Below are positions 21,548 to 43,733 of a stretch of DNA of 49,002 nucleotides, one piece after another. The stretch spans positions 1 to 49,002 of the IMG/VR virus record IMGVR_UViG_3300049142_000071. One strand, given 5' to 3'. This DNA is from a virus (lineage: Duplodnaviria > Caudoviricetes). The notes under the pieces are model-generated. The model had not been told where the DNA came from. It worked only from the letters and a program-made list of their open reading frames with translations, and did not search any database. The position numbers and the translations under genes are program-made. Every line of letters begins with the position of its first letter. The stretch's first letter is position 1.

Positions 21548-22000
21548 TCAGGTGATCTCCCCGTGGGCCAGAGCGCGGCGGCGGTCGGCGGCCCGGGCGA
21601 GGGCGGCCTTGCGCTTGGCGATGCGCTCGGGGGAGTTCTTGTCGCGGCCGCGGCCCACCCCGGGACGGTCCATCGGCTTGGGCGGCTTGGACTGCTGCGA
21701 TTCCTTGACGCCCTCGTTCTGACGCTGCCAGTTCGCTACCCGAAGCTCGTCGATCGTCAGGGCCTGCAGGTGCTCCTGCAGACCCCACAGCCCGTCCGTC
21801 TGCCCGAGCGCGATACGGGTGCGGGCGCGCGGGGGGAGTTGGCGGATGTACCCGCCGAGCTCCCGCCACGTCAGCAGCGGCACGCCGGCGCTGTCGCGGC
21901 GGAACAGGTCCGACAGGCGGATGCCGTAGTGCTCGCGAAGGTCTGCCTGGACTGCCTCGCCGTGCTCCCTCAGGAGTCGGACGAGGCCTGCGATTCCCCC
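21548..22000 (-). CDS. Tail assembly chaperone, -1 frameshift extension (gpGT-like)
   Basis: Open -1 frame (IAGLVRLLREHGEAVQADLREHYGI...) entered at slippery GGGGGAA 22000-21994; no start codon of its own. Confidence 0.8.
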   Translation of the reverse strand, partial: GGIAGLVRLLREHGEAVQADLREHYGIRLSDLFRRDSAGVPLLTWRELGGYIRQLPPRARTRIALGQTDGLWGLQEHLQALTIDELRVANWQRQNEGVKESQQSKPPKPMDRPGVGRGRDKNSPERIAKRKAALARAADRRRALAHGEIT

Positions 22001-22789: not shown

Positions 22790-23560
22790 TCAGGCCGTGA
22801 CGGTCACGGCGCAGGTGTCGGTCTGGCCCTGGTAGCTGGCGGTCACCGTGGCGGAACCGGCGGCGATGCCGGTGACGAACCCGGCGGACACCGTGGCCTT
22901 GGTGGCGTCCGACGTGGACCAGGTCGCGCTGGCGGTGACGTCGGCGGTGGTCGCGTCGGAGTAGGTAGCCGTCGCCGCGAGGGCGCCGATCTCCCCGTCG
23001 GCGACCGTTAGCGTGGCCGGGGTGACGGAGATGGACGACAGGACCGGGGTGGCCTGGCGGTCGAACAGGACGCCGTCGTCGGTCGGGAAGATCGTCGCGG
23101 CGATCGTCGCCGACTCGAGGTCGGTCTCGTTCTCGCCGTGGTCGCCGTCCAGCGAGCACTCGGCGTACTGGGCCGTCGCCAGGCGGCGCACCTTCTCGCC
23201 CTCGCGGGTCTCGAAAGCCACCTTGACCCGCTCCGGACGCGGCACCTTGATCTGCGTGTCAGTGGACCCGGGCCACACCAGCTTGCGGGTGGTCTCGTTG
23301 TCCTCGAGGGCCGTGAAGGACTTGGTCAGCTTGAAGTGCTGACGGGACGTACGGACGAGGATGCCGCCCCACGCGAACTTGTCGTCGGTGTCCTCGTCGC
23401 GAGTCTCGGGGAAACCCTCGTCTCCGTCGAGCAGACCGACCAGGTGCCAGTCCGGCCCGAACGGAGTCGCCGCGTTGGCGGGAAGCGTCGCGCTCAGGTT
23501 CCAGGACACGTACACGTCCGCGTCGGTCCAGAGATTTGCCTTTGTCGGGTCGCCGGCCAC
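22790..23560 (-). CDS. Major tail protein with C-terminal Ig-like (Big_2) domain
   Basis: Position; LVGLLDGDEG, KFAWGG; SISVTPATLTV...DVTASATWSTSD..KATVS Ig motif; RBS GGAAGGAGG. Confidence 0.88.
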   Translation of the reverse strand: MAGDPTKANLWTDADVYVSWNLSATLPANAATPFGPDWHLVGLLDGDEGFPETRDEDTDDKFAWGGILVRTSRQHFKLTKSFTALEDNETTRKLVWPGSTDTQIKVPRPERVKVAFETREGEKVRRLATAQYAECSLDGDHGENETDLESATIAATIFPTDDGVLFDRQATPVLSSISVTPATLTVADGEIGALAATATYSDATTADVTASATWSTSDATKATVSAGFVTGIAAGSATVTASYQGQTDTCAVTVTA

Positions 23561-26089: not shown

Positions 26090-27418
26090 TCAGGCGGTCA
26101 GGTCGATCTCGACGAACGCGGACGGCTGCAGGATGCCGAAGGCGGCCCGCATCTCGGCGAGGATCGCCACCAGGTTGCGGACGAAGAAGTCCAGGTGGCT
26201 GTCGGTGACCTGGACGGTGGCCTGCTCGCGGTCCCACAGGACGGCCTTGCGGAAGTCACCGACGTAGCCGGTGCCCTGCGGTACGGCCTCGGTCTCGATG
26301 ATCGGCAGGTTCCACAGCGGCTGCGCCGTACCGGTGCCGGACGGGCCGCCGAAGTAGAACCTGGCCTCGTTGTCCTGCAGCAGGTCCAGGGTCTCGAGGT
26401 CCGTCGGGTGCAGCAGGTAGGCGTTGGCGATGCTGCGTCCGATGGTGCGGACCTTGGTCTTGGCCTTGCGCAGGGTGGTGAGCAGGTCGGTGTCCCAGGC
26501 CTGCGCCTGGACGCCGGACACGTTGCCGAGGCCCTCGAAGTTCTCGCCCGTGCCGTCGCCCTGGATCATCTGGTCCTCGAGCTCCTCCTCCAGGCCGTAC
26601 AGGAGGAACGCGTCGATGAGCGTCCTGATCTGCGCGGCGTCGGAGAGGGCCCGCTTGGTGGCCGGCATCCAGTGCGCGATCGTCTTGACCGCCGTGGTGA
26701 TCTTCGCGAGGGCGAGGCCGGATTCCGGCTTGTAGCCGCCGCCCGCGTTGTTCACCAGCGCGCCCGCGCCGCCCGGTGCGGTCGGTGCCGCCGAGCTGGT
26801 CGCCTCCGGGACGGGGGCCGCGTTGTTCGTCACGGAGGTGACGCGCACGTACTCCACCGTGTCCGAGGTGGTGGTGCCCGGGGTGACGACGTCCCGCAGC
26901 CGCAGCGGCCGCTGGAACACGTCCAGGCCCACCTGCAGACCACGCCAGTCGTTCTGGACCAGGGCTCCGCCGGAGGTGTCGGAGCCGCCGGTGACCAGCG
27001 ACTTGACCCCGAACATCTCCGACTGCACGCGCTGCTTGGCGCCGAACTTGCCGTTGGGCGCCTGGGCGAGCAGGTGCTTGTACTCGGCGGACTCGGTGAA
27101 CTGCTGGCCGAGGCTCTTGGCCTTGTCCGGCAGGATGAATCCGGACGCGGTCTGCCGCTGGCCCTTCTCGTCGGTGTTGACGTTGAGGGCGATGTCGTCG
27201 CCGAGCTCGGCGAGCGTACGGCGCAGCTCGTCGTTGCCCTTTAGCTTCTCGATCTCGGCCTTGAGTTGGGTGGCCTTGCCCATGTACTCGCGAAGCTGGG
27301 CGGACTCCTCGGTGGTGAAGTCGCGTTCGCCGTCCTGTTCGGCGGCGAGGGTGATCTCGCGCGCCTTGAGGAGCCATCCCTTGGCTTCCTCGGACAGCTC
27401 CTTGATGGTCTTGGCCAT
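26090..27418 (-). CDS. Major capsid protein, HK97 family
   Basis: N-terminal coiled-coil delta domain, GGALV, QMIQGDG, FFVRNLVAILAEMRAAF; RBS AGGAG upstream of ATG 27418. Confidence 0.95.
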   Translation of the reverse strand: MAKTIKELSEEAKGWLLKAREITLAAEQDGERDFTTEESAQLREYMGKATQLKAEIEKLKGNDELRRTLAELGDDIALNVNTDEKGQRQTASGFILPDKAKSLGQQFTESAEYKHLLAQAPNGKFGAKQRVQSEMFGVKSLVTGGSDTSGGALVQNDWRGLQVGLDVFQRPLRLRDVVTPGTTTSDTVEYVRVTSVTNNAAPVPEATSSAAPTAPGGAGALVNNAGGGYKPESGLALAKITTAVKTIAHWMPATKRALSDAAQIRTLIDAFLLYGLEEELEDQMIQGDGTGENFEGLGNVSGVQAQAWDTDLLTTLRKAKTKVRTIGRSIANAYLLHPTDLETLDLLQDNEARFYFGGPSGTGTAQPLWNLPIIETEAVPQGTGYVGDFRKAVLWDREQATVQVTDSHLDFFVRNLVAILAEMRAAFGILQPSAFVEIDLTA

Positions 27419-27428
27419 GCCGTATCTC

Positions 27429-28340
27429 CTATTCCGTGAGCGCTGCCTCGAGCTCCAGGAGCTCGAGATCGGTTCGCAGACGGGCGGAGACGGATCCGGC
27501 CTTGGCGGCATCCTCGGATGCTTCGCGGGGGCTCGGGGTGGTCTCTTCCTCGGTGCTGCTGGTGGTGTCCTCGGTGGCGGCCTGGGCGGGCGCGGGCTCT
27601 GAGGGCTTGGCGGGCGGCGTGTCGCCGCTGGCCGCCGCAGAGCCGGGCTGGCCGGTCTCCTCCGGGGTGTCGTTCTTCTTCGGGGCGGCCGGGCCACGGG
27701 CCTTGTCGGGCTCCGGGGCAGCGGCGGCCAGGACCTCACCGATCGACTCGTAAGCCGCGGTGAGGGTGTCGAAGTTCTTCTGGGACAGGACGCGGCCGGC
27801 CTTCGCGCCGGCGGCGAGGCCCGCGGCCTTCGCGGCGAGCAGCTCGGTCTCGCGGTTCACGCCGAGCAGGCACGGCCCGACCTCGTGCAGGTCCAGGCGG
27901 CGCAGCTCGTAGTAGCCGCCCCAGGGGTGCTCGTCGTCGGTGATCCAGCCGCCTTCGCCGACGTCGTACGCGAAGGAGAACTGGGTGACCCTGCGGCCCT
28001 TGAGCAGGCGGTAGACCTGCTTCGCGGTCGGGTTGGCGTCCTCGCCGTCGAGGTCGTCGATCTGCCCGGTGACCTCGAGGCCCTGCAGCGTCTCGGTCGC
28101 CTTCAGCACGCGGCCGATGTGGGAGAACGGGTCGCTCCACTGGTGGGCCCAGATGACGGGGATGTCGTCGCCCTTGGCCGCCCACTCCTGCAGGGTCTGC
28201 GTGAAGGCGCCAGGCCTGACGACGTCGCCGTAGCTGTCCTCGTTGTTGAACACGCTGACCAGGGCGACGAACTGTCCCTCGTCCAGGCCGTCGGCGACGC
28301 CTGCCGCCTTGACCTTGGCGGTCACTTCCATCGTGCGCAC
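27429..28340 (-). CDS. Prohead protease, HK97 family
   Basis: SVFNNEDSYGDVVRPGAF, VIWAHQW, QFSFAY, LHEVGP. Confidence 0.92.
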   Translation of the reverse strand: MRTMEVTAKVKAAGVADGLDEGQFVALVSVFNNEDSYGDVVRPGAFTQTLQEWAAKGDDIPVIWAHQWSDPFSHIGRVLKATETLQGLEVTGQIDDLDGEDANPTAKQVYRLLKGRRVTQFSFAYDVGEGGWITDDEHPWGGYYELRRLDLHEVGPCLLGVNRETELLAAKAAGLAAGAKAGRVLSQKNFDTLTAAYESIGEVLAAAAPEPDKARGPAAPKKNDTPEETGQPGSAAASGDTPPAKPSEPAPAQAATEDTTSSTEEETTPSPREASEDAAKAGSVSARLRTDLELLELEAALTE

Positions 28341-28341
28341 G

Positions 28342-28623
28342 TCAGTGCTCCTTCCTGATGAGAGCCGCGCGCAGGGTCGCCTCAGCTCGCCGGTAGCCGT
28401 CCTCGTCGTCGCGGTTCGAGAAGGAGAAGGGTTCGCCCTGGCGGGCGATGAGAAGCTGCCAGCCGGTGACCTCACCGCTCTCTTCGCGCCACAGCGCCAG
28501 AGCCAGGCCGTGCGGGTGGAAGACACAGCGGTTGATCAGCCACAGCAGGCCGGAGTCGATGAGCTCGCTCAGGGGCTGCAACCCGCCCTGGGGTTCGGGG
28601 TAGACGTTGGCGTCCTGGGCCAC
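28342..28623 (-). CDS. Hypothetical protein between portal and protease
   Basis: 93 aa ORF tightly packed between neighbours, RBS GAGGAGG; SGLLWLINRCVFHPHGLALA. Confidence 0.7.
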   Translation of the reverse strand: MAQDANVYPEPQGGLQPLSELIDSGLLWLINRCVFHPHGLALALWREESGEVTGWQLLIARQGEPFSFSNRDDEDGYRRAEATLRAALIRKEH

Positions 28624-28626
28624 AGG

Positions 28627-30567
28627 TCAGCCCTCCTCGTAGTCGAGGTCGCAGTTGCAGTTGACGAGCTCTTCGGTGCGCCCCTGGCCGTCGCCGGGCC
28701 AGCGCAGGCCGTTGGAGAACACGTCGTCCAGGGAGACGGACTCGCCGTCCTGGGCCTTGTGACTGGGCCGCGGGTTCTTTCCGCCGGTCCGCCAGATCTT
28801 CTTTGTGAGACCGGACGCGCTGGCTGCATCGTGGCTGCCGAACGAGCGGGTCTCAGTGGCGGCGGTGCGGGCCCGTGCAGCGGCCGCGGAGCCCCACGCT
28901 GCCGCGGCCGACTGCAGGTCCTCCCGCCAGCCGTCGCCGCCCTCCTCCTGCACCTTGGCGACGGCCGCCCGCCCGGCCTCCTCGTGCTGCGCCGCGTGCG
29001 TCTCGGCGGCAGCGAGGATCCAGGCGAGCATCACCTCGGCTGACCAGTTCTCGGCCTCGGGGTTGTAGACGTCCAGCACGCCCCACGCGCCGACCTGGGC
29101 AAGCCGGTAGCCGTGGTGGGACAGCAGCGCCTGCAGCTGCGCGAGTCGGTCCTCGGAGCCCTTCGCCCACAGCTCGAGGAGGTTCGGCATGCCGTCGTCG
29201 TCGGCCTTCGCGCCGGCGGCCGCCAGGAGGGCGTCGGCCTGCCGCTCGGTGAACGCGACCAGCGTGCTCTCGAGGGCGTCACGTTCGGACGCGAAGGTGC
29301 CGAGCGACGAAGGCCTGCCGGAGGCTTTCCTACGCGGCAGGCCGCCCGCTTTTGGGGCGCCGTCCCCAGGCGCCGGGGCGGTGTCCCGTGGACTGGCGAG
29401 GCCGCCCTCGGTGACGTTCATGGGCACGATCAGCTCGTCGCCGCCCTCCACCCGGGGCAGGTTGTTCCGCGCCCGGATCTCGTTACGCGTCATCCACGGG
29501 CCGCCCGTTGCGGTCGACGCTGCAGCGGCCTGGCTCTCAAAGTCGCCGCGCATCTTCGACTCGACGTTGAACTCGCAGTAGACGTTCCGGTTATCCGGCA
29601 GGTCGGGCAGGATCTGCGCCTCGAACTCCTGCTGCAGATCCACCGTCCAGGGCCCCAACGTGTCCTGGTACAGGTGGGCGTGCTGCTCCTTGATGTTGGA
29701 GTAGGTGGCGTGGTCGAGGATCCCGATCAGCGGCGGCGGGATGTAGTAGGCGGCCGCGGCCTCCTCGCGGGTCAGCTTGCGGGCCTCGATGTACTGGGCC
29801 TGCTCGGGGTTGAAGCCAACCGGCTTGTAGTCCATGCCGTCTTCGAGGATCGGCGTGCCGCCCTCGGCGCCGCCGCCCTGCGAGAACGTTCGCCACATCT
29901 CTCGGAAGCGGCGTCGGTCCTTCGCGTCCCACTCGGGGGCGTCGGCCGGCCGGACGAGGACGCCGGTGAGGCGAGACCCGCCCCTCCACATCTGAGCCCG
30001 GGACTTGGCCGCCTCGGACGACTCGAGGATGAGTTCACGCAGGGACTCGATGGGGGACTCGCCGTAGGTCATATCGGTGGGCGAGTAGCCGTGAATGTGG
30101 ATCACCTCGTCCACCCCGAACTGCCGCCCGCCCGCGGTCTCGTAGTACTCGGGGGCGATCCAGTTCCCGCCGTACGGGCGGATCAGCGTGGGCGGCACAG
30201 GCAGGATCCGCAGCCGCCCGTCGAGCTTCAGCTTGATCCCGAAGAAGTTGTCGTACAGGGCCCTGTCGCTGACGATGCGCTCGATGAACCGGTACTGCGT
30301 CATGCGGGGCAGCGGCTCGGCGAGCAGCTGCGCCAGCGGGTGATCGCGCAGCCGCTCGCGGTCGGTGTCACTGATCCGGCGAAAGACGTGCACGCCGAGC
30401 TGGGCGATGTTCCGCGCGATGAACCCGATGACCGTACGGACCTGCGGCTGCGTGCGCCAGATCGTCTCGTACTCCCACGGCTGCGCCCGGAACGTCGCCG
30501 GCGCGTAGGCGGGCAGTACGCCGGCCCCGGTGGTGGCCAGTTCACCGGAGCTGACCACGAACGCCAT
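28627..30567 (-). CDS. Portal protein (HK97 family) fused in frame to a MuF-like minor head domain
   Basis: HPLAQLL, EVIHIH, GESPI, ILEDGMDY, WMTRNEIR; C-terminal KKIWRT..RPSH..DG..WPGD..VNCNC. Confidence 0.93.
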   Translation of the reverse strand: MAFVVSSGELATTGAGVLPAYAPATFRAQPWEYETIWRTQPQVRTVIGFIARNIAQLGVHVFRRISDTDRERLRDHPLAQLLAEPLPRMTQYRFIERIVSDRALYDNFFGIKLKLDGRLRILPVPPTLIRPYGGNWIAPEYYETAGGRQFGVDEVIHIHGYSPTDMTYGESPIESLRELILESSEAAKSRAQMWRGGSRLTGVLVRPADAPEWDAKDRRRFREMWRTFSQGGGAEGGTPILEDGMDYKPVGFNPEQAQYIEARKLTREEAAAAYYIPPPLIGILDHATYSNIKEQHAHLYQDTLGPWTVDLQQEFEAQILPDLPDNRNVYCEFNVESKMRGDFESQAAAASTATGGPWMTRNEIRARNNLPRVEGGDELIVPMNVTEGGLASPRDTAPAPGDGAPKAGGLPRRKASGRPSSLGTFASERDALESTLVAFTERQADALLAAAGAKADDDGMPNLLELWAKGSEDRLAQLQALLSHHGYRLAQVGAWGVLDVYNPEAENWSAEVMLAWILAAAETHAAQHEEAGRAAVAKVQEEGGDGWREDLQSAAAAWGSAAAARARTAATETRSFGSHDAASASGLTKKIWRTGGKNPRPSHKAQDGESVSLDDVFSNGLRWPGDGQGRTEELVNCNCDLDYEEG

Positions 30568-30788
30568 CAGCCCTCACCGCCCGCCAGGACCTGGATGAAC
30601 TCCACCCGGGCCCGCTCGACGACGACCTCGCCGTCCACCGTCTGCGGGGCGCGGCCGGCCTCGAGGAGCTCGGCGTCCCGCAGGACCAGCAGCGGGCCGC
30701 GCTTGGCCCACAGGATCGCGCGGAACGCCTTGTCGGACAGGTTGACGACGACTCGCTTGCGTACGGCTGTGCGGCGCCACCAGAACAT
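30567..30788 (-). CDS. Small protein between terminase and portal
   Basis: 73 aa, VVVNL...LVLRDAELL...VDGEVVVERARVEFIQV; RBS GGAGG; TGATG coupling. Confidence 0.75.
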   Translation of the reverse strand: MFWWRRTAVRKRVVVNLSDKAFRAILWAKRGPLLVLRDAELLEAGRAPQTVDGEVVVERARVEFIQVLAGGEG

Positions 30789-41830: not shown

Positions 41831-42118
41831 TCAGTCGTCGGACTGGTCGGGTGACCTGAGGCTCTGCAGGTACTGCTCGATCTCCTCGGTGGTCATCGGC
41901 GGCGGGGCACCCGGAGTGGGGCGGCAGTAGACGTAGCCCGGCGGGATCGAGTCGTCGTACACGAGCGGCCATTCGCACGACCGCGCTGCTGAGAGGAACT
42001 CCGGGGTGGCTCTGGGCTCGACGGCCTTGGGGCGAAGGATGTCTCTGAGCAGGTCGAGGGTGCCCCGCTCGGCGGCGACCTCTTGGACGGGGTCGATGCG
42101 CACGAAGAGGATCTTCAC
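41831..42118 (-). CDS. Hypothetical protein
   Basis: GTGA coupling; RBS GAGGAG. Confidence 0.6.
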   Translation of the reverse strand: MKILFVRIDPVQEVAAERGTLDLLRDILRPKAVEPRATPEFLSAARSCEWPLVYDDSIPPGYVYCRPTPGAPPPMTTEEIEQYLQSLRSPDQSDD

Positions 42119-43428
42119 GGCGTCTCCTCGGCGAGTGGCGGACCCTCGTAGTTGCTGGAATGGCCGCTGGCGTCAGCGGCCGGCCGGACCGTCCAGCCGC
42201 CGGCGGAGAGGCTGATGTAGGCGAGAAGGAACTGAGCGCGGCGGGCCGGGCTCGTGCTGGGAGGAACGGTCAGGACGCCTTCACCGACCGTCAGCGACCA
42301 TGTGCCGTCAGGGTTGTGCCGCCAGGCCGGGACCACGGCCGTGGTGTTGAGGACGTACGAGGGTGTCTGGAGGGCGGTGCGGATCCGGCGGGCGGCGTCG
42401 CGCATGGCTTCTCGGGCGGGCTCGGCCAGCCCGATACCGGTTGCCGCGAACTCCAGATCAGGTGCGACAGTGCCCACCCGTTCGAGGGCGGCCTGTGCTG
42501 CCTCCAACTCGCCTTCAACCCAGGTCAGCTCACCCAGCTCCTTCTGGGCCCGGGCGATCCGCGAACGGTGGTTCTCGAGGAAGCACTGGCTCGCGGCCTT
42601 ATGGTTGCTGAGCACGGTGGCGGCGACGTCCAGGCGCTGCTCCGCGGTGGCGCGGTTCCACCACCAGATCCACTGTCCTGGCGTGTCATCAGGGCTGGGG
42701 TAGTCGCCGCCGAGTTCCTCGCCGGCGCGGAGCCTGGCCACCTCCGCCGCCGCCAGCTCGGTCCCGGAGTCGTCCACCCGTGTCGGCGTGGTGGCCTGCG
42801 CAGGATCCTCGGGGTGGACGACTTCGGACTGCTCAGCGCGTGTGCGCTGCTCCTGGGCTTCCGTCCCGTAGCGCTCCAGCTTCTTGCGCAGCGCCCGGTT
42901 TTCGACTCGGTGGTCGGCGACCACGGCGCGCGCGGTGTCGGCCTCCCGCATCTCGGTCTCGACGAGCTGGCGCAGGAGTTCGGCCTCCTCGACGCTGAAG
43001 CGGATGCGGGCGGCGTGGGAGAGGAGGTTGCGGAGGCTGGCGCGGCGGGTGGTGCGCTGCGCGTCCTCGTCGGCGACCGGGGCCTGCGCGGGGATGGACA
43101 GGTCTCGCGTCCCGGCCTTCAGCCAGTCGGGCGGGCGTGGGGTGTGTGCGTCGAGCCCAAAGATGCTGCCGGGGGCGTGGCGCCAGACGGCGGGGTCTCC
43201 GGTGAGTTCGATGAGGTCGCCGCAGACGCAGCGGGGGCCGTCGTCGCTGCCCGTCGTCGGGGCGCCGTCGGGGGCGTCGGTCTGCTCGACGACGGGCGTC
43301 GACAGGGCGTCGGCGATGCGTCGGACCTGCGTCGTCAGGCCGTCGAAGGCACGGACGACGGCCGGCGCGTCCGGGCTGGGTTGGCTCATCGCCGGGTCTC
43401 CAAGGCGGTGATCGCGGGTGTCGCTCAT
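42115..43428 (-). CDS. Mosaic coiled-coil hypothetical protein
   Basis: TGATG coupling; CVC motif; heptad-rich segments. Confidence 0.65.
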   Translation of the reverse strand: MSDTRDHRLGDPAMSQPSPDAPAVVRAFDGLTTQVRRIADALSTPVVEQTDAPDGAPTTGSDDGPRCVCGDLIELTGDPAVWRHAPGSIFGLDAHTPRPPDWLKAGTRDLSIPAQAPVADEDAQRTTRRASLRNLLSHAARIRFSVEEAELLRQLVETEMREADTARAVVADHRVENRALRKKLERYGTEAQEQRTRAEQSEVVHPEDPAQATTPTRVDDSGTELAAAEVARLRAGEELGGDYPSPDDTPGQWIWWWNRATAEQRLDVAATVLSNHKAASQCFLENHRSRIARAQKELGELTWVEGELEAAQAALERVGTVAPDLEFAATGIGLAEPAREAMRDAARRIRTALQTPSYVLNTTAVVPAWRHNPDGTWSLTVGEGVLTVPPSTSPARRAQFLLAYISLSAGGWTVRPAADASGHSSNYEGPPLAEETP

Positions 43429-43733
43429 CAGGTGCTCTTCCGGTAGTTGGTCTCGATCTCGGCGAAGGCCTGCTCCTCGGCGAGCGTCAGCCGGGTGTCG
43501 CCGGGTGGACGTAGGCCGGGGCTGGTGGCCCGTTCGATCTGGTCGCGCAGGTCGTCCTGGGTGTCGGCGTGTTCGGACTCGCGGACGGCAGCGATGACAC
43601 AGACCAAGGCCGCGGCGGCGGTGAGGAGGCTGACCCAGACGGGCACGGTTTCCCACGTGCGGCTGGTCAGGTAGCCGAGCCACAGGAACGCGAGGCAGTA
43701 CAGGGAGGTGATGGCCCGAGCGAGTCGACTCAT
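43428..43733 (-). CDS. Two-TM membrane protein
   Basis: ATGA coupling; two hydrophobic segments. Confidence 0.65.
   Translation of the reverse strand: MSRLARAITSLYCLAFLWLGYLTSRTWETVPVWVSLLTAAAALVCVIAAVRESEHADTQDDLRDQIERATSPGLRPPGDTRLTLAEEQAFAEIETNYRKST

What the first reader, a model, noticed from the sequence alone, without database searches (positions are those of the whole stretch)
29312..29356. Complete -1 frameshift signal at the portal/MuF junction
Seen: codons 404-406 are GCC CCA AAA, giving an in-register X XXY YYZ heptamer C CCA AAA (29356-29350) built from codons rare at this GC. A 6-nt spacer follows, then a 9-bp stem GGCCTGCCG/CGGCAGGCC (29343-29312) with an inner AGG/CCT pair. 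The -1 frame reaches TAG (29332-29330) after six codons, giving about 412 aa, a normal portal size. The zero frame gives the 646-aa portal-MuF fusion. Established: CCCAAAA drives -1 frameshifts in structural genes of some Firmicutes phages (e.g. Lactobacillus A2). Portal is a dodecamer, while MuF proteins are low-copy. Inference: a truncating frameshift sets the portal:portal-MuF ratio, the reverse of the usual extension logic.
Basis: partly seen in the sequence, partly recalled or inferred. Interest (0 to 1): 0.82.

Follow-up and report, generated by a model that had tools for sequence, protein, structure and literature searches.

The report
Frameshift splits phage portal from MuF
In this Streptomyces-type phage's fused portal-MuF head gene, a slippery CCCAAAA site, a predicted RNA hairpin and a nearby out-of-frame stop are kept together in dozens of diverged relatives, so some ribosomes likely slip back one base and make a plain portal beside the fusion, which would limit how much MuF goes into the head.

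Summary
Among 52 dereplicated homologous genes, 45 keep C CCA AAA G. Lys406 is AAA in 46 of 52, against 0-5 at 11 other conserved Lys columns. A stem opens after a 6-nt spacer, with compensatory changes. All 45 reach a -1 stop within 22 codons (null 20%), giving a 409-427 aa portal. A second clade (~54% portal identity) keeps the signal. One relative, L120, is the mirror image: same heptamer, portal stops in frame, MuF lies in the -1 frame; two other runs reproduce that junction. Limits: 11 of 79 clade members and all 72 distant fusions lack the heptamer, so it is dispensable; protease cutting at K-A/S is the likely back-up. No frameshift product was measured. Truncating -1 shifts are known (copA, csoS2); nine literature searches showed none in a portal gene. 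This scan noted the truncating form twice and the extending form repeatedly on other DNA.

The parts
28627..30567 (-). Portal-MuF-like fusion ORF, 646 aa (70.9 kDa), zero-frame product
   Evidence: phrog_2662 over aa 27-644, E 2e-145
29461..30444 (-). HK97-family portal domain (aa 42-369)
   Evidence: PF04860 E 3.7e-81; TIGR01537 above cut-off; PDB portal matches over aa 40-381
29350..29356 (-). Slippery heptamer C CCA AAA (followed by G), codons 404-406
   Evidence: kept in 45 of 52 dereplicated homologues
29344..29349 (-). 6-nt spacer
   Evidence: first stem pair G-C at this offset in 44 of 45, the position before it not consistently paired
29312..29343 (-). Predicted stimulatory hairpin: 9-bp stem plus inner 3-bp helix
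   Evidence: compensatory changes at three pairs and four loop lengths
29330..29332 (-). -1 frame stop TAG in the hairpin loop, ending a predicted 412-aa (46.0 kDa) portal
28627..29295 (-). MuF-like (head morphogenesis) C-terminal region, approximately aa 425-646; boundary estimated, no structure model obtained
   Evidence: phrog_2468 head morphogenesis E 2.9e-15; PF04233 E 2e-4, 22.5 bits, below the 29.6 cut-off; cultured homologues annotated 'portal and MuF-like fusion protein'
27429..28358 (-). Prohead protease (Peptidase_S78), candidate for cutting the linker at K-A/S
   Evidence: PF04586 E 1.5e-20; role in the linker is inferred
26090..27412 (-). HK97-type major capsid protein; K137-S138 is a candidate delta-domain cut site
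   Evidence: PF05065 from aa 167; K[AS] list; cut site inferred

Best explanation
The portal-MuF fusion gene carries, at its domain junction, a conserved slippery heptamer, predicted hairpin and -1 stop that likely act as a programmed -1 ribosomal frameshift, so the gene would make a free ~412-aa portal alongside the 646-aa fusion. Shown: the anatomy, its conservation at codon and base-pair level, the near -1 stop, and one relative with the two frames swapped. Inferred: a ribosome with CCA in the P site and AAA in the A site pauses at the stem 6 nt downstream, re-pairs on CCC AAA, and ends at TAG after SGRPAA. AAA rather than AAG is likely needed because Streptomyces has a separate tRNA-Lys(CUU), which could not re-pair on AAA. 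Inferred purpose: the portal ring (12 subunits, recalled) then carries MuF on only some subunits, in line with the 1-2 copies per head of SPP1 gp7. The prohead protease probably trims both forms at the Lys-Ala/Ser sites in the linker, which would explain why fusions without the signal still work.
For: K406 is AAA in 46 of 52 versus 0-5 at 11 other Lys columns; P405 is CCA in 45 of 50 versus 0-6 at 34 other Pro columns. The preceding codon takes 6 forms (CTC, GCC, CCC, GTC, TTC, TCC), all ending in C in 45 of 45, against 20-50% C at such third positions. Only one other in-register X XXY YYZ (Y = A/T) occurs elsewhere in the 52 genes. A -1 stop follows within 22 codons in 45 of 45 (null 20.3%), at 7 different distances; products 409-427 aa. 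The +1 control is scattered over 5-107 codons. Stop-making third-position T: 55 of 252 opportunities in the linker versus 306 of 4946 elsewhere. Stem pairs 0-5 pair in 44-45 of 45, with G-C/C-G, U-A/G-C and C-G/G-C swaps; stem of at least 9 pairs in 36 of 45, null 4.6%. Second clade: CCCAAAAG in 24 of 24 loci, -1 stop after 15-26 codons in 20 of 20 scored. Near -1 stop (26 codons or fewer) in 67 of 67 truncating carriers versus 4 of 11 non-carriers (rows are related, not independent). L120 mirror form: portal ends 5 codons after the heptamer, MuF open for 236 codons in -1; junction identical in contigs of runs X2 and X4; its MuF has dN/dS 0.19-0.31 against 6 relatives. Most full-length stand-alone portals at ~50% identity are 400-450 aa. 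A Streptomyces genome carrying a relative has both tRNA-Lys(TTT) and (CTT). The same phage has a G GGG GAA tail-chaperone shift site.
Against: No direct measurement (ribosome profiling, reporter or proteomics). The heptamer is missing in 7 of 52 close homologues, 11 of 79 clade rows and 72 of 72 outside rows; none of 15 cultured fusion phages examined has CCCAAAA. Three of the 7 close non-carriers keep a near -1 stop, and hairpin energy does not differ clearly between carriers and non-carriers (p 0.07). Third-position T enrichment, carriers versus non-carriers, is not significant (5 of 40, p 0.21). 23 of 62 distant fusions without the heptamer also have a -1 stop within 26 codons. In the synonymous-site scan the junction window (0.50) only ties with codons 106-114 (0.49). 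K406 is kept in 52 of 52, including non-carriers, so the residue is also under protein-level selection. L120 is a single lineage, its runs may be one campaign, and its stem alone is not better than shuffles (z -0.16).
Confidence: 0.84

Rival explanations
1. Only the full fusion is made; the prohead protease frees the portal at PK-A / xK-S, and the DNA signal is an inherited relic.
For: Linker Lys is followed by A/S/G in 103 of 107 cases versus 75 of 485 in the portal part; K406 and K414 are kept in 52 of 52. 72 distant fusions and 11 clade members do without the heptamer. HK97-type K-S cleavage is recalled, not from a call.
Against: Protein-level selection cannot hold rare CCA and AAA codons, a C-ending codon under six residues, compensatory pairs and NNT stop codons at 65-93% nucleotide identity. 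It does not explain L120, whose MuF lies in the -1 frame of the same heptamer. Cleavage likely co-exists with the shift.
Confidence: 0.08
2. The hairpin and A-run are a transcriptional or RNA-processing element (sense attenuator, RNase site, or antisense terminator reading hairpin-TTTT), not a recoding site.
For: The hairpin folds on the opposite strand too (-26 kcal/mol, z -1.89). Some non-carriers keep a strong stem (L003 -24.0, L020 -35.9).
Against: The T-run is only 4 nt and lies 6 nt from the stem; the terminator scan does not call it. No Rfam match. It does not explain the conserved CCC, the -1 stops or the L120 frame swap. An attenuator here would cut expression of the downstream capsid gene.
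Confidence: 0.05
3. The rare codons and hairpin only make a translational pause, letting the portal domain fold before MuF is made; any slipping is incidental.
For: The site sits exactly at the domain junction, and AAA and CCA are rare codons.
Against: A pause does not need an X XXY YYZ match or -1 stops, and cannot express L120's MuF.
Confidence: 0.03

Closest known systems
Halothiobacillus csoS2 (CsoS2A/CsoS2B) truncating -1 frameshift; passages seen in PMC5009743 and bioRxiv 10.1101/2023.07.07.548173
   Same: One open ORF for a shell-assembly protein; a -1 shift ends translation early, giving short and long isoforms whose ratio matters for the particle.
   Different: Carboxysome scaffold, not a phage portal; measured at about 50%, while here efficiency is unknown.
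E. coli copA / CopA(Z) truncating -1 frameshift (PMC5009743, PMC9548414 passages) and dnaX tau/gamma (recalled)
   Same: Truncating -1 shift that frees an N-terminal domain. C_CCA_AAG is listed as highly shift-prone in E. coli (PMC5009743); the site here differs by the last base.
   Different: Host genes, not virion proteins. No SD-like element is evident upstream in the 6 sequences inspected, and no conserved pseudoknot was seen in 9 folds.
Phage structural-gene -1 frameshifts: lambda gpG/GT tail chaperones, T3/T7 capsid extensions, Lactobacillus A2 major head and tail proteins (PMC5009743, PMC4493119 passages)
   Same: Heptamer plus downstream structure in a phage structural gene, giving two products at a set ratio.
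   Different: Those shifts extend the protein near the end of the ORF; here the shift is mid-ORF, shortens the product and lies in the portal gene. The A2 heptamer sequence is recalled, not verified.
'Portal and MuF-like fusion' genes of Arthrobacter and Microbacterium phages (PMC7302621 passages)
   Same: Same domain order, size (639-685 aa in the 12 loci) and head-module context; about 50% portal identity for the Arthrobacter ones.
   Different: None of the 15 cultured examples examined has CCCAAAA at the junction; the paper describes the fusion but no frameshift there.

Membership tests
Programmed -1 ribosomal frameshift (heptamer plus 3' structure) | In-register X XXY YYZ heptamer | tested here: met
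   C CCA AAA
Programmed -1 ribosomal frameshift (heptamer plus 3' structure) | Stable 3' structure 5-9 nt downstream, supported by covariation | tested here: met
   6-nt spacer
Programmed -1 ribosomal frameshift (heptamer plus 3' structure) | Signal conserved beyond protein need | tested here: met
   lost in 11 of 79 clade rows
Programmed -1 ribosomal frameshift (heptamer plus 3' structure) | Shifted product or ribosome drop-off shown | not testable with these tools
   No ribosome profiling, proteomics or reporter data available
Truncating type (dnaX / copA / csoS2) | Zero frame open, -1 frame closed shortly after the site, short product a complete domain | tested here: met
   45 of 45 within 22 codons; portal domain ends near aa 380; stand-alone portals mostly 400-450 aa
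Truncating type (dnaX / copA / csoS2) | dnaX-type upstream SD-like stimulator (recalled feature) | tested here: inconclusive
   None evident by eye in 30 nt upstream of 6 sequences; no formal test
Extension-type phage structural frameshift (G/GT, A2, T7) | Zero-frame stop after the site, second domain in the -1 frame | tested here: not met
   Not met in the window; met in relative L120
HK97-family portal | PF04860 / TIGR01537 above cut-off | tested here: met
MuF1 (PF04233 Phage_Mu_F) | Pfam score above the gathering cut-off | tested here: not met
   22.5 bits versus 29.6, E 2e-4; best called MuF-like, from PHROG head-morphogenesis hits and curated annotations
MuF superfamily (MuF2-4 of PMC5576092) | Match to the MuF2, MuF3 or MuF4 profile, or MuF fold | not tested
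   MuF3/4 profiles not fetched; no PF06152 hit listed at E up to 5; the structure job was not finished

The most novel reading that the evidence does not exclude
The portal/MuF junction is a general recoding switch in tailed phages: what selection keeps is a mixed portal ring, with MuF tethered to a tunable share of subunits, and a lineage can flip between 'fusion cut short by a -1 shift' and 'portal extended by a -1 shift' through a single-base indel at the same CCCAAAA site, as L120 appears to have done. Apparently fused portal-MuF genes would then hide a second, main product, and the shift rate would set the MuF dose delivered per virion.
Probability: 0.45. Interest if true: 0.8.

Novelty: new variant of a known kind. 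Interest (0 to 1): 0.66.

Why it matters
A portal ring needs many subunits while MuF/gp7 proteins are present at 1-2 copies per head (SPP1; PMC5576092), so an in-frame fusion poses a stoichiometry puzzle. A truncating shift answers it, and it sits mid-ORF, where tools that look at overlaps between adjacent genes (PRFect, PMC10885494) do not look. It also gives a clean handle on the poorly understood MuF: synonymous changes at the heptamer would force all-fusion, and an in-frame stop would force no-MuF, with the portal sequence unchanged. The natural non-carriers and the mirror-image L120 are ready-made comparisons. If confirmed it would add the portal to the phage genes known to use recoding.

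Tried and rejected
The heptamer alone is at chance level in the window. Rfam gave no match; the promoter/terminator scan gave nothing at the site. The MAFFT alignment of 44 junctions misplaces the 3' arm because loop lengths differ, so pair counts were made in a script that picks the best 3' offset per sequence; this leans towards pairing, but not towards the pattern of double changes. The synonymous-divergence scan did not single out the junction. No conserved pseudoknot in 9 folds. A 401-genome class search with the MuF part gave 8 genomes with a match; the 8 distant loci from it gave nothing usable on the junction. The metagenome scan gave no second mirror-type lineage, only the L120 contig again (L291). 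Runs X3 and X5 did not cover the L120 junction. No cultured phage with the signal was found: 0 of 15 examined, best phage-collection matches below 60% identity. The third sequence (L176) was given at wrong coordinates and is ignored. The group table ('1 change') counted only non-carriers against outgroups; losses were read from the drawn tree (at least 4) and (8 changes). The AlphaFold job never returned (pending). No expression data were sought; the single run search went to L120.

Full report
Context. The window is a whole 49,002-base virus record, 70.5% G+C. The head module runs on the minus strand: TerS, TerL, a 73-aa ORF, the 646-aa portal fusion, a 93-aa ORF, prohead protease and HK97-type capsid. 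The closest named homologues are portals from Streptomyces genomes at up to 96% identity, so the host is inferred to be Streptomyces. Residues 42-369 match PF04860. The C-terminal third matches PHROG head-morphogenesis families (E 2.9e-15) and PF04233 only below its cut-off, so it is MuF-like. Cultured homologues are annotated 'portal and MuF-like fusion protein'.

Observation. All stated elements are present at the stated coordinates. The hairpin beats 199 of 200 shuffles. One CCCAAAA per window is what chance gives, so the case rests on homologues.

Conservation, first clade. Searches gave 52 and 18 loci. I dropped partial genes and distant (40% or less) matches, kept 61 full-length genes including the window's, and dereplicated them at 97% to 52 (pairwise nucleotide identity 64.5-93.1%). 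45 of 52 have C CCA AAA G. Lys406 is AAA in 46 of 52, against 0-5 at 11 other conserved Lys columns. Pro405 is CCA in 45 of 50, against 0-6 at 34 other Pro columns. The preceding codon encodes Leu, Ala, Pro, Val, Phe or Ser but always ends in C (45 of 45), against 20-50% background; only one other in-register heptamer occurs elsewhere in the 52 genes. A sliding synonymous-divergence scan was less selective: the junction (0.50) ties with codons 106-114 (0.49).

Hairpin. With the 5' arm fixed after a 6-nt spacer and the best 3' offset chosen per sequence, the first six pairs form in 44-45 of 45. Pair 1 is G-C in 37 and C-G in 8; pair 4 is U-A in 36 and G-C in 9; pair 6 is C-G in 21, G-C in 4 and mismatched in 19. 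Four loop lengths occur, one of them in a different codon register. The base before the stem is not consistently paired. Stems of at least 9 pairs occur in 36 of 45, against 4.6% of control positions.

The -1 stop. All 45 carriers stop within 6-22 codons, at seven distances, giving 409-427 aa; 20.3% of control positions do so. Every such stop needs a rare NNT codon: 55 of 252 opportunities in the linker against 306 of 4946 elsewhere. The +1 frame shows no such limit (5-107 codons). Most full-length stand-alone portals near 50% identity are 400-450 aa (some on short contigs).

Losses. Seven of 52 lack the heptamer, at least four separate events on the quick tree. Four of the seven have lost the near stop (49, 63, 112, 114 codons) and three keep one (6, 22, 23). 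L003 and L005 sit among carriers and read TAC where their kin have TAG. With the wider set, 67 of 67 truncating carriers against 4 of 11 non-carriers have a stop within 26 codons; these rows are related, so the p value overstates the case.

Wider distribution. Three more scans were scored (129 loci passed the filters). A second clade at about 54% portal identity has CCCAAAAG in 24 of 24 loci, and the 20 scored stop after 15-26 codons. On a FastTree of the MuF part of 151 rows, all 68 carriers fall in one clade (support 99) of 79 rows, with 8 state changes; 0 of 72 outside rows carry it. None of 15 cultured fusion phages examined has CCCAAAA; one, 1191A, has a different heptamer near the junction. 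So the signal arose once in a Streptomyces-type lineage and is dispensable.

Mirror-image relative. In L120 (P0125) the same heptamer is followed by a net one-base loss relative to its kin. The portal stops five codons later, and MuF is open for 236 codons in the -1 frame; a 7-bp stem again starts after 6 nt. Contigs of two of four other runs span the junction with no differences. Its MuF shows dN/dS 0.19-0.31 and GC3 0.85, and it nests among truncating carriers. Against over-reading: it is one lineage, the runs may be one campaign, a recent accidental frameshift is not excluded, an in-frame GTG at L120:3706 exists, and its stem is no better than shuffles. Still, a chance indel would rarely land within a few bases of the heptamer.

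Mechanism. Shown: anatomy, conservation, covariation, stops, mirror form. Inferred: tandem slip CCA AAA to CCC AAA at a ribosome paused by the stem. C_CCA_AAG is highly shift-prone in E. coli (PMC5009743). A Streptomyces genome carrying a relative has four tRNA-Lys pattern hits, one TTT and three CTT, two of them confirmed by ARAGORN; with a dedicated CUU tRNA only AAA should slip, which fits. The phage also has a G GGG GAA site in its tail chaperone. Inferred purpose: SPP1 gp7 binds the portal at 1-2 copies per capsid (PMC5576092), so a shift would limit MuF per ring. Linker Lys is followed by A/S/G in 103 of 107 cases, and K406 is kept even in non-carriers, so protease trimming probably acts as well (HK97 K-S cleavage recalled). 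Both products could then end at the same Lys.

Known systems and novelty. Truncating -1 shifts are described for copA and csoS2 (PMC5009743; bioRxiv 10.1101/2023.07.07.548173); dnaX is recalled. Portal-MuF fusions are described in PMC7302621 without a shift. Nine full-text searches showed no portal-gene frameshift; the library lacks most subscription papers. I saw passages only, never whole texts or supplements, of PMC7302621, PMC5576092, PMC5009743 (first 300,000 characters held; 'portal' 0 times there), PMC9548414, the bioRxiv paper, PMC5221750, PMC4493119, PMC10885494, PMC7260188, PMC3483164, PMC4205034, PMC6893835 and PMC13313380. Supplementary annotations could bear on the novelty claim. 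PMC355979 (A2) was not held. My reading was formed before I consulted the scan's notes. They hold two truncating cases on other DNA (e1-6090209, probably this family; e1-5906449) and many extending cases; these are unchecked notes, not support. The 'two cultured phages' of e1-5906449 prompted, which found none in this family.

Verdict. A real, conserved, very probably functional truncating -1 frameshift signal (0.84); new variant of a known kind; interest 0.66. No structure model was obtained, so the domain boundary is from profile matches.

Noticed in passing
window 21994-22000 (-): G GGG GAA in register near the end of the 123-aa tail assembly chaperone (22341-21970); the -1 frame is open for 150 codons up to the tape measure gene. 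Looks like the usual G/GT frameshift.
   Followed up: partly
L120:3607-3631: Mirror-image arrangement: same heptamer, portal stops in frame, MuF in the -1 frame; junction identical in two other runs.
   Followed up: yes
L063 (Arthrobacter phage 1191A), portal codon 423: A different in-register heptamer, G GGT TTG, in the linker, with a -1 stop 5 codons later and a -29.7 kcal/mol fold over 70 nt. May be chance at 53% G+C.
   Followed up: no
L020 and L068, portal-MuF linker: No heptamer, but in L020 a very strong hairpin (-35.9 kcal/mol) starts about 8 nt after Lys406, with a -1 stop 23 codons on; L068 has the same linker sequence. Relic or another signal.
   Followed up: no
L176-L199 versus window: Portal and MuF parts are mosaic: this clade has portal 56-59% but MuF mostly 61-68% identical to the window, while the L008 group has portal 76-79% and MuF 42-47%. 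The signal stays at the seam.
   Followed up: partly
window 30567-30788 (-): 73-aa ORF between TerL and portal (phrog_6750, unknown function); the gene at the same place in five Arthrobacter phages is annotated 'RNA binding protein'. Homology not tested.
   Followed up: no
window 28342-28623 (-): 93-aa ORF of unknown function (phrog_3954) inserted between the portal fusion and the protease.
   Followed up: no
window portal codons 106-114 (about 30226-30252, -): Synonymous divergence as low as at the junction (0.49); unexplained.
   Followed up: no
window 22790-23560 (-) and 42115-43683 (-): Other in-register heptamers, G GGT TTC at 23417 and G GGA AAC at 43654; conservation not checked.
   Followed up: no
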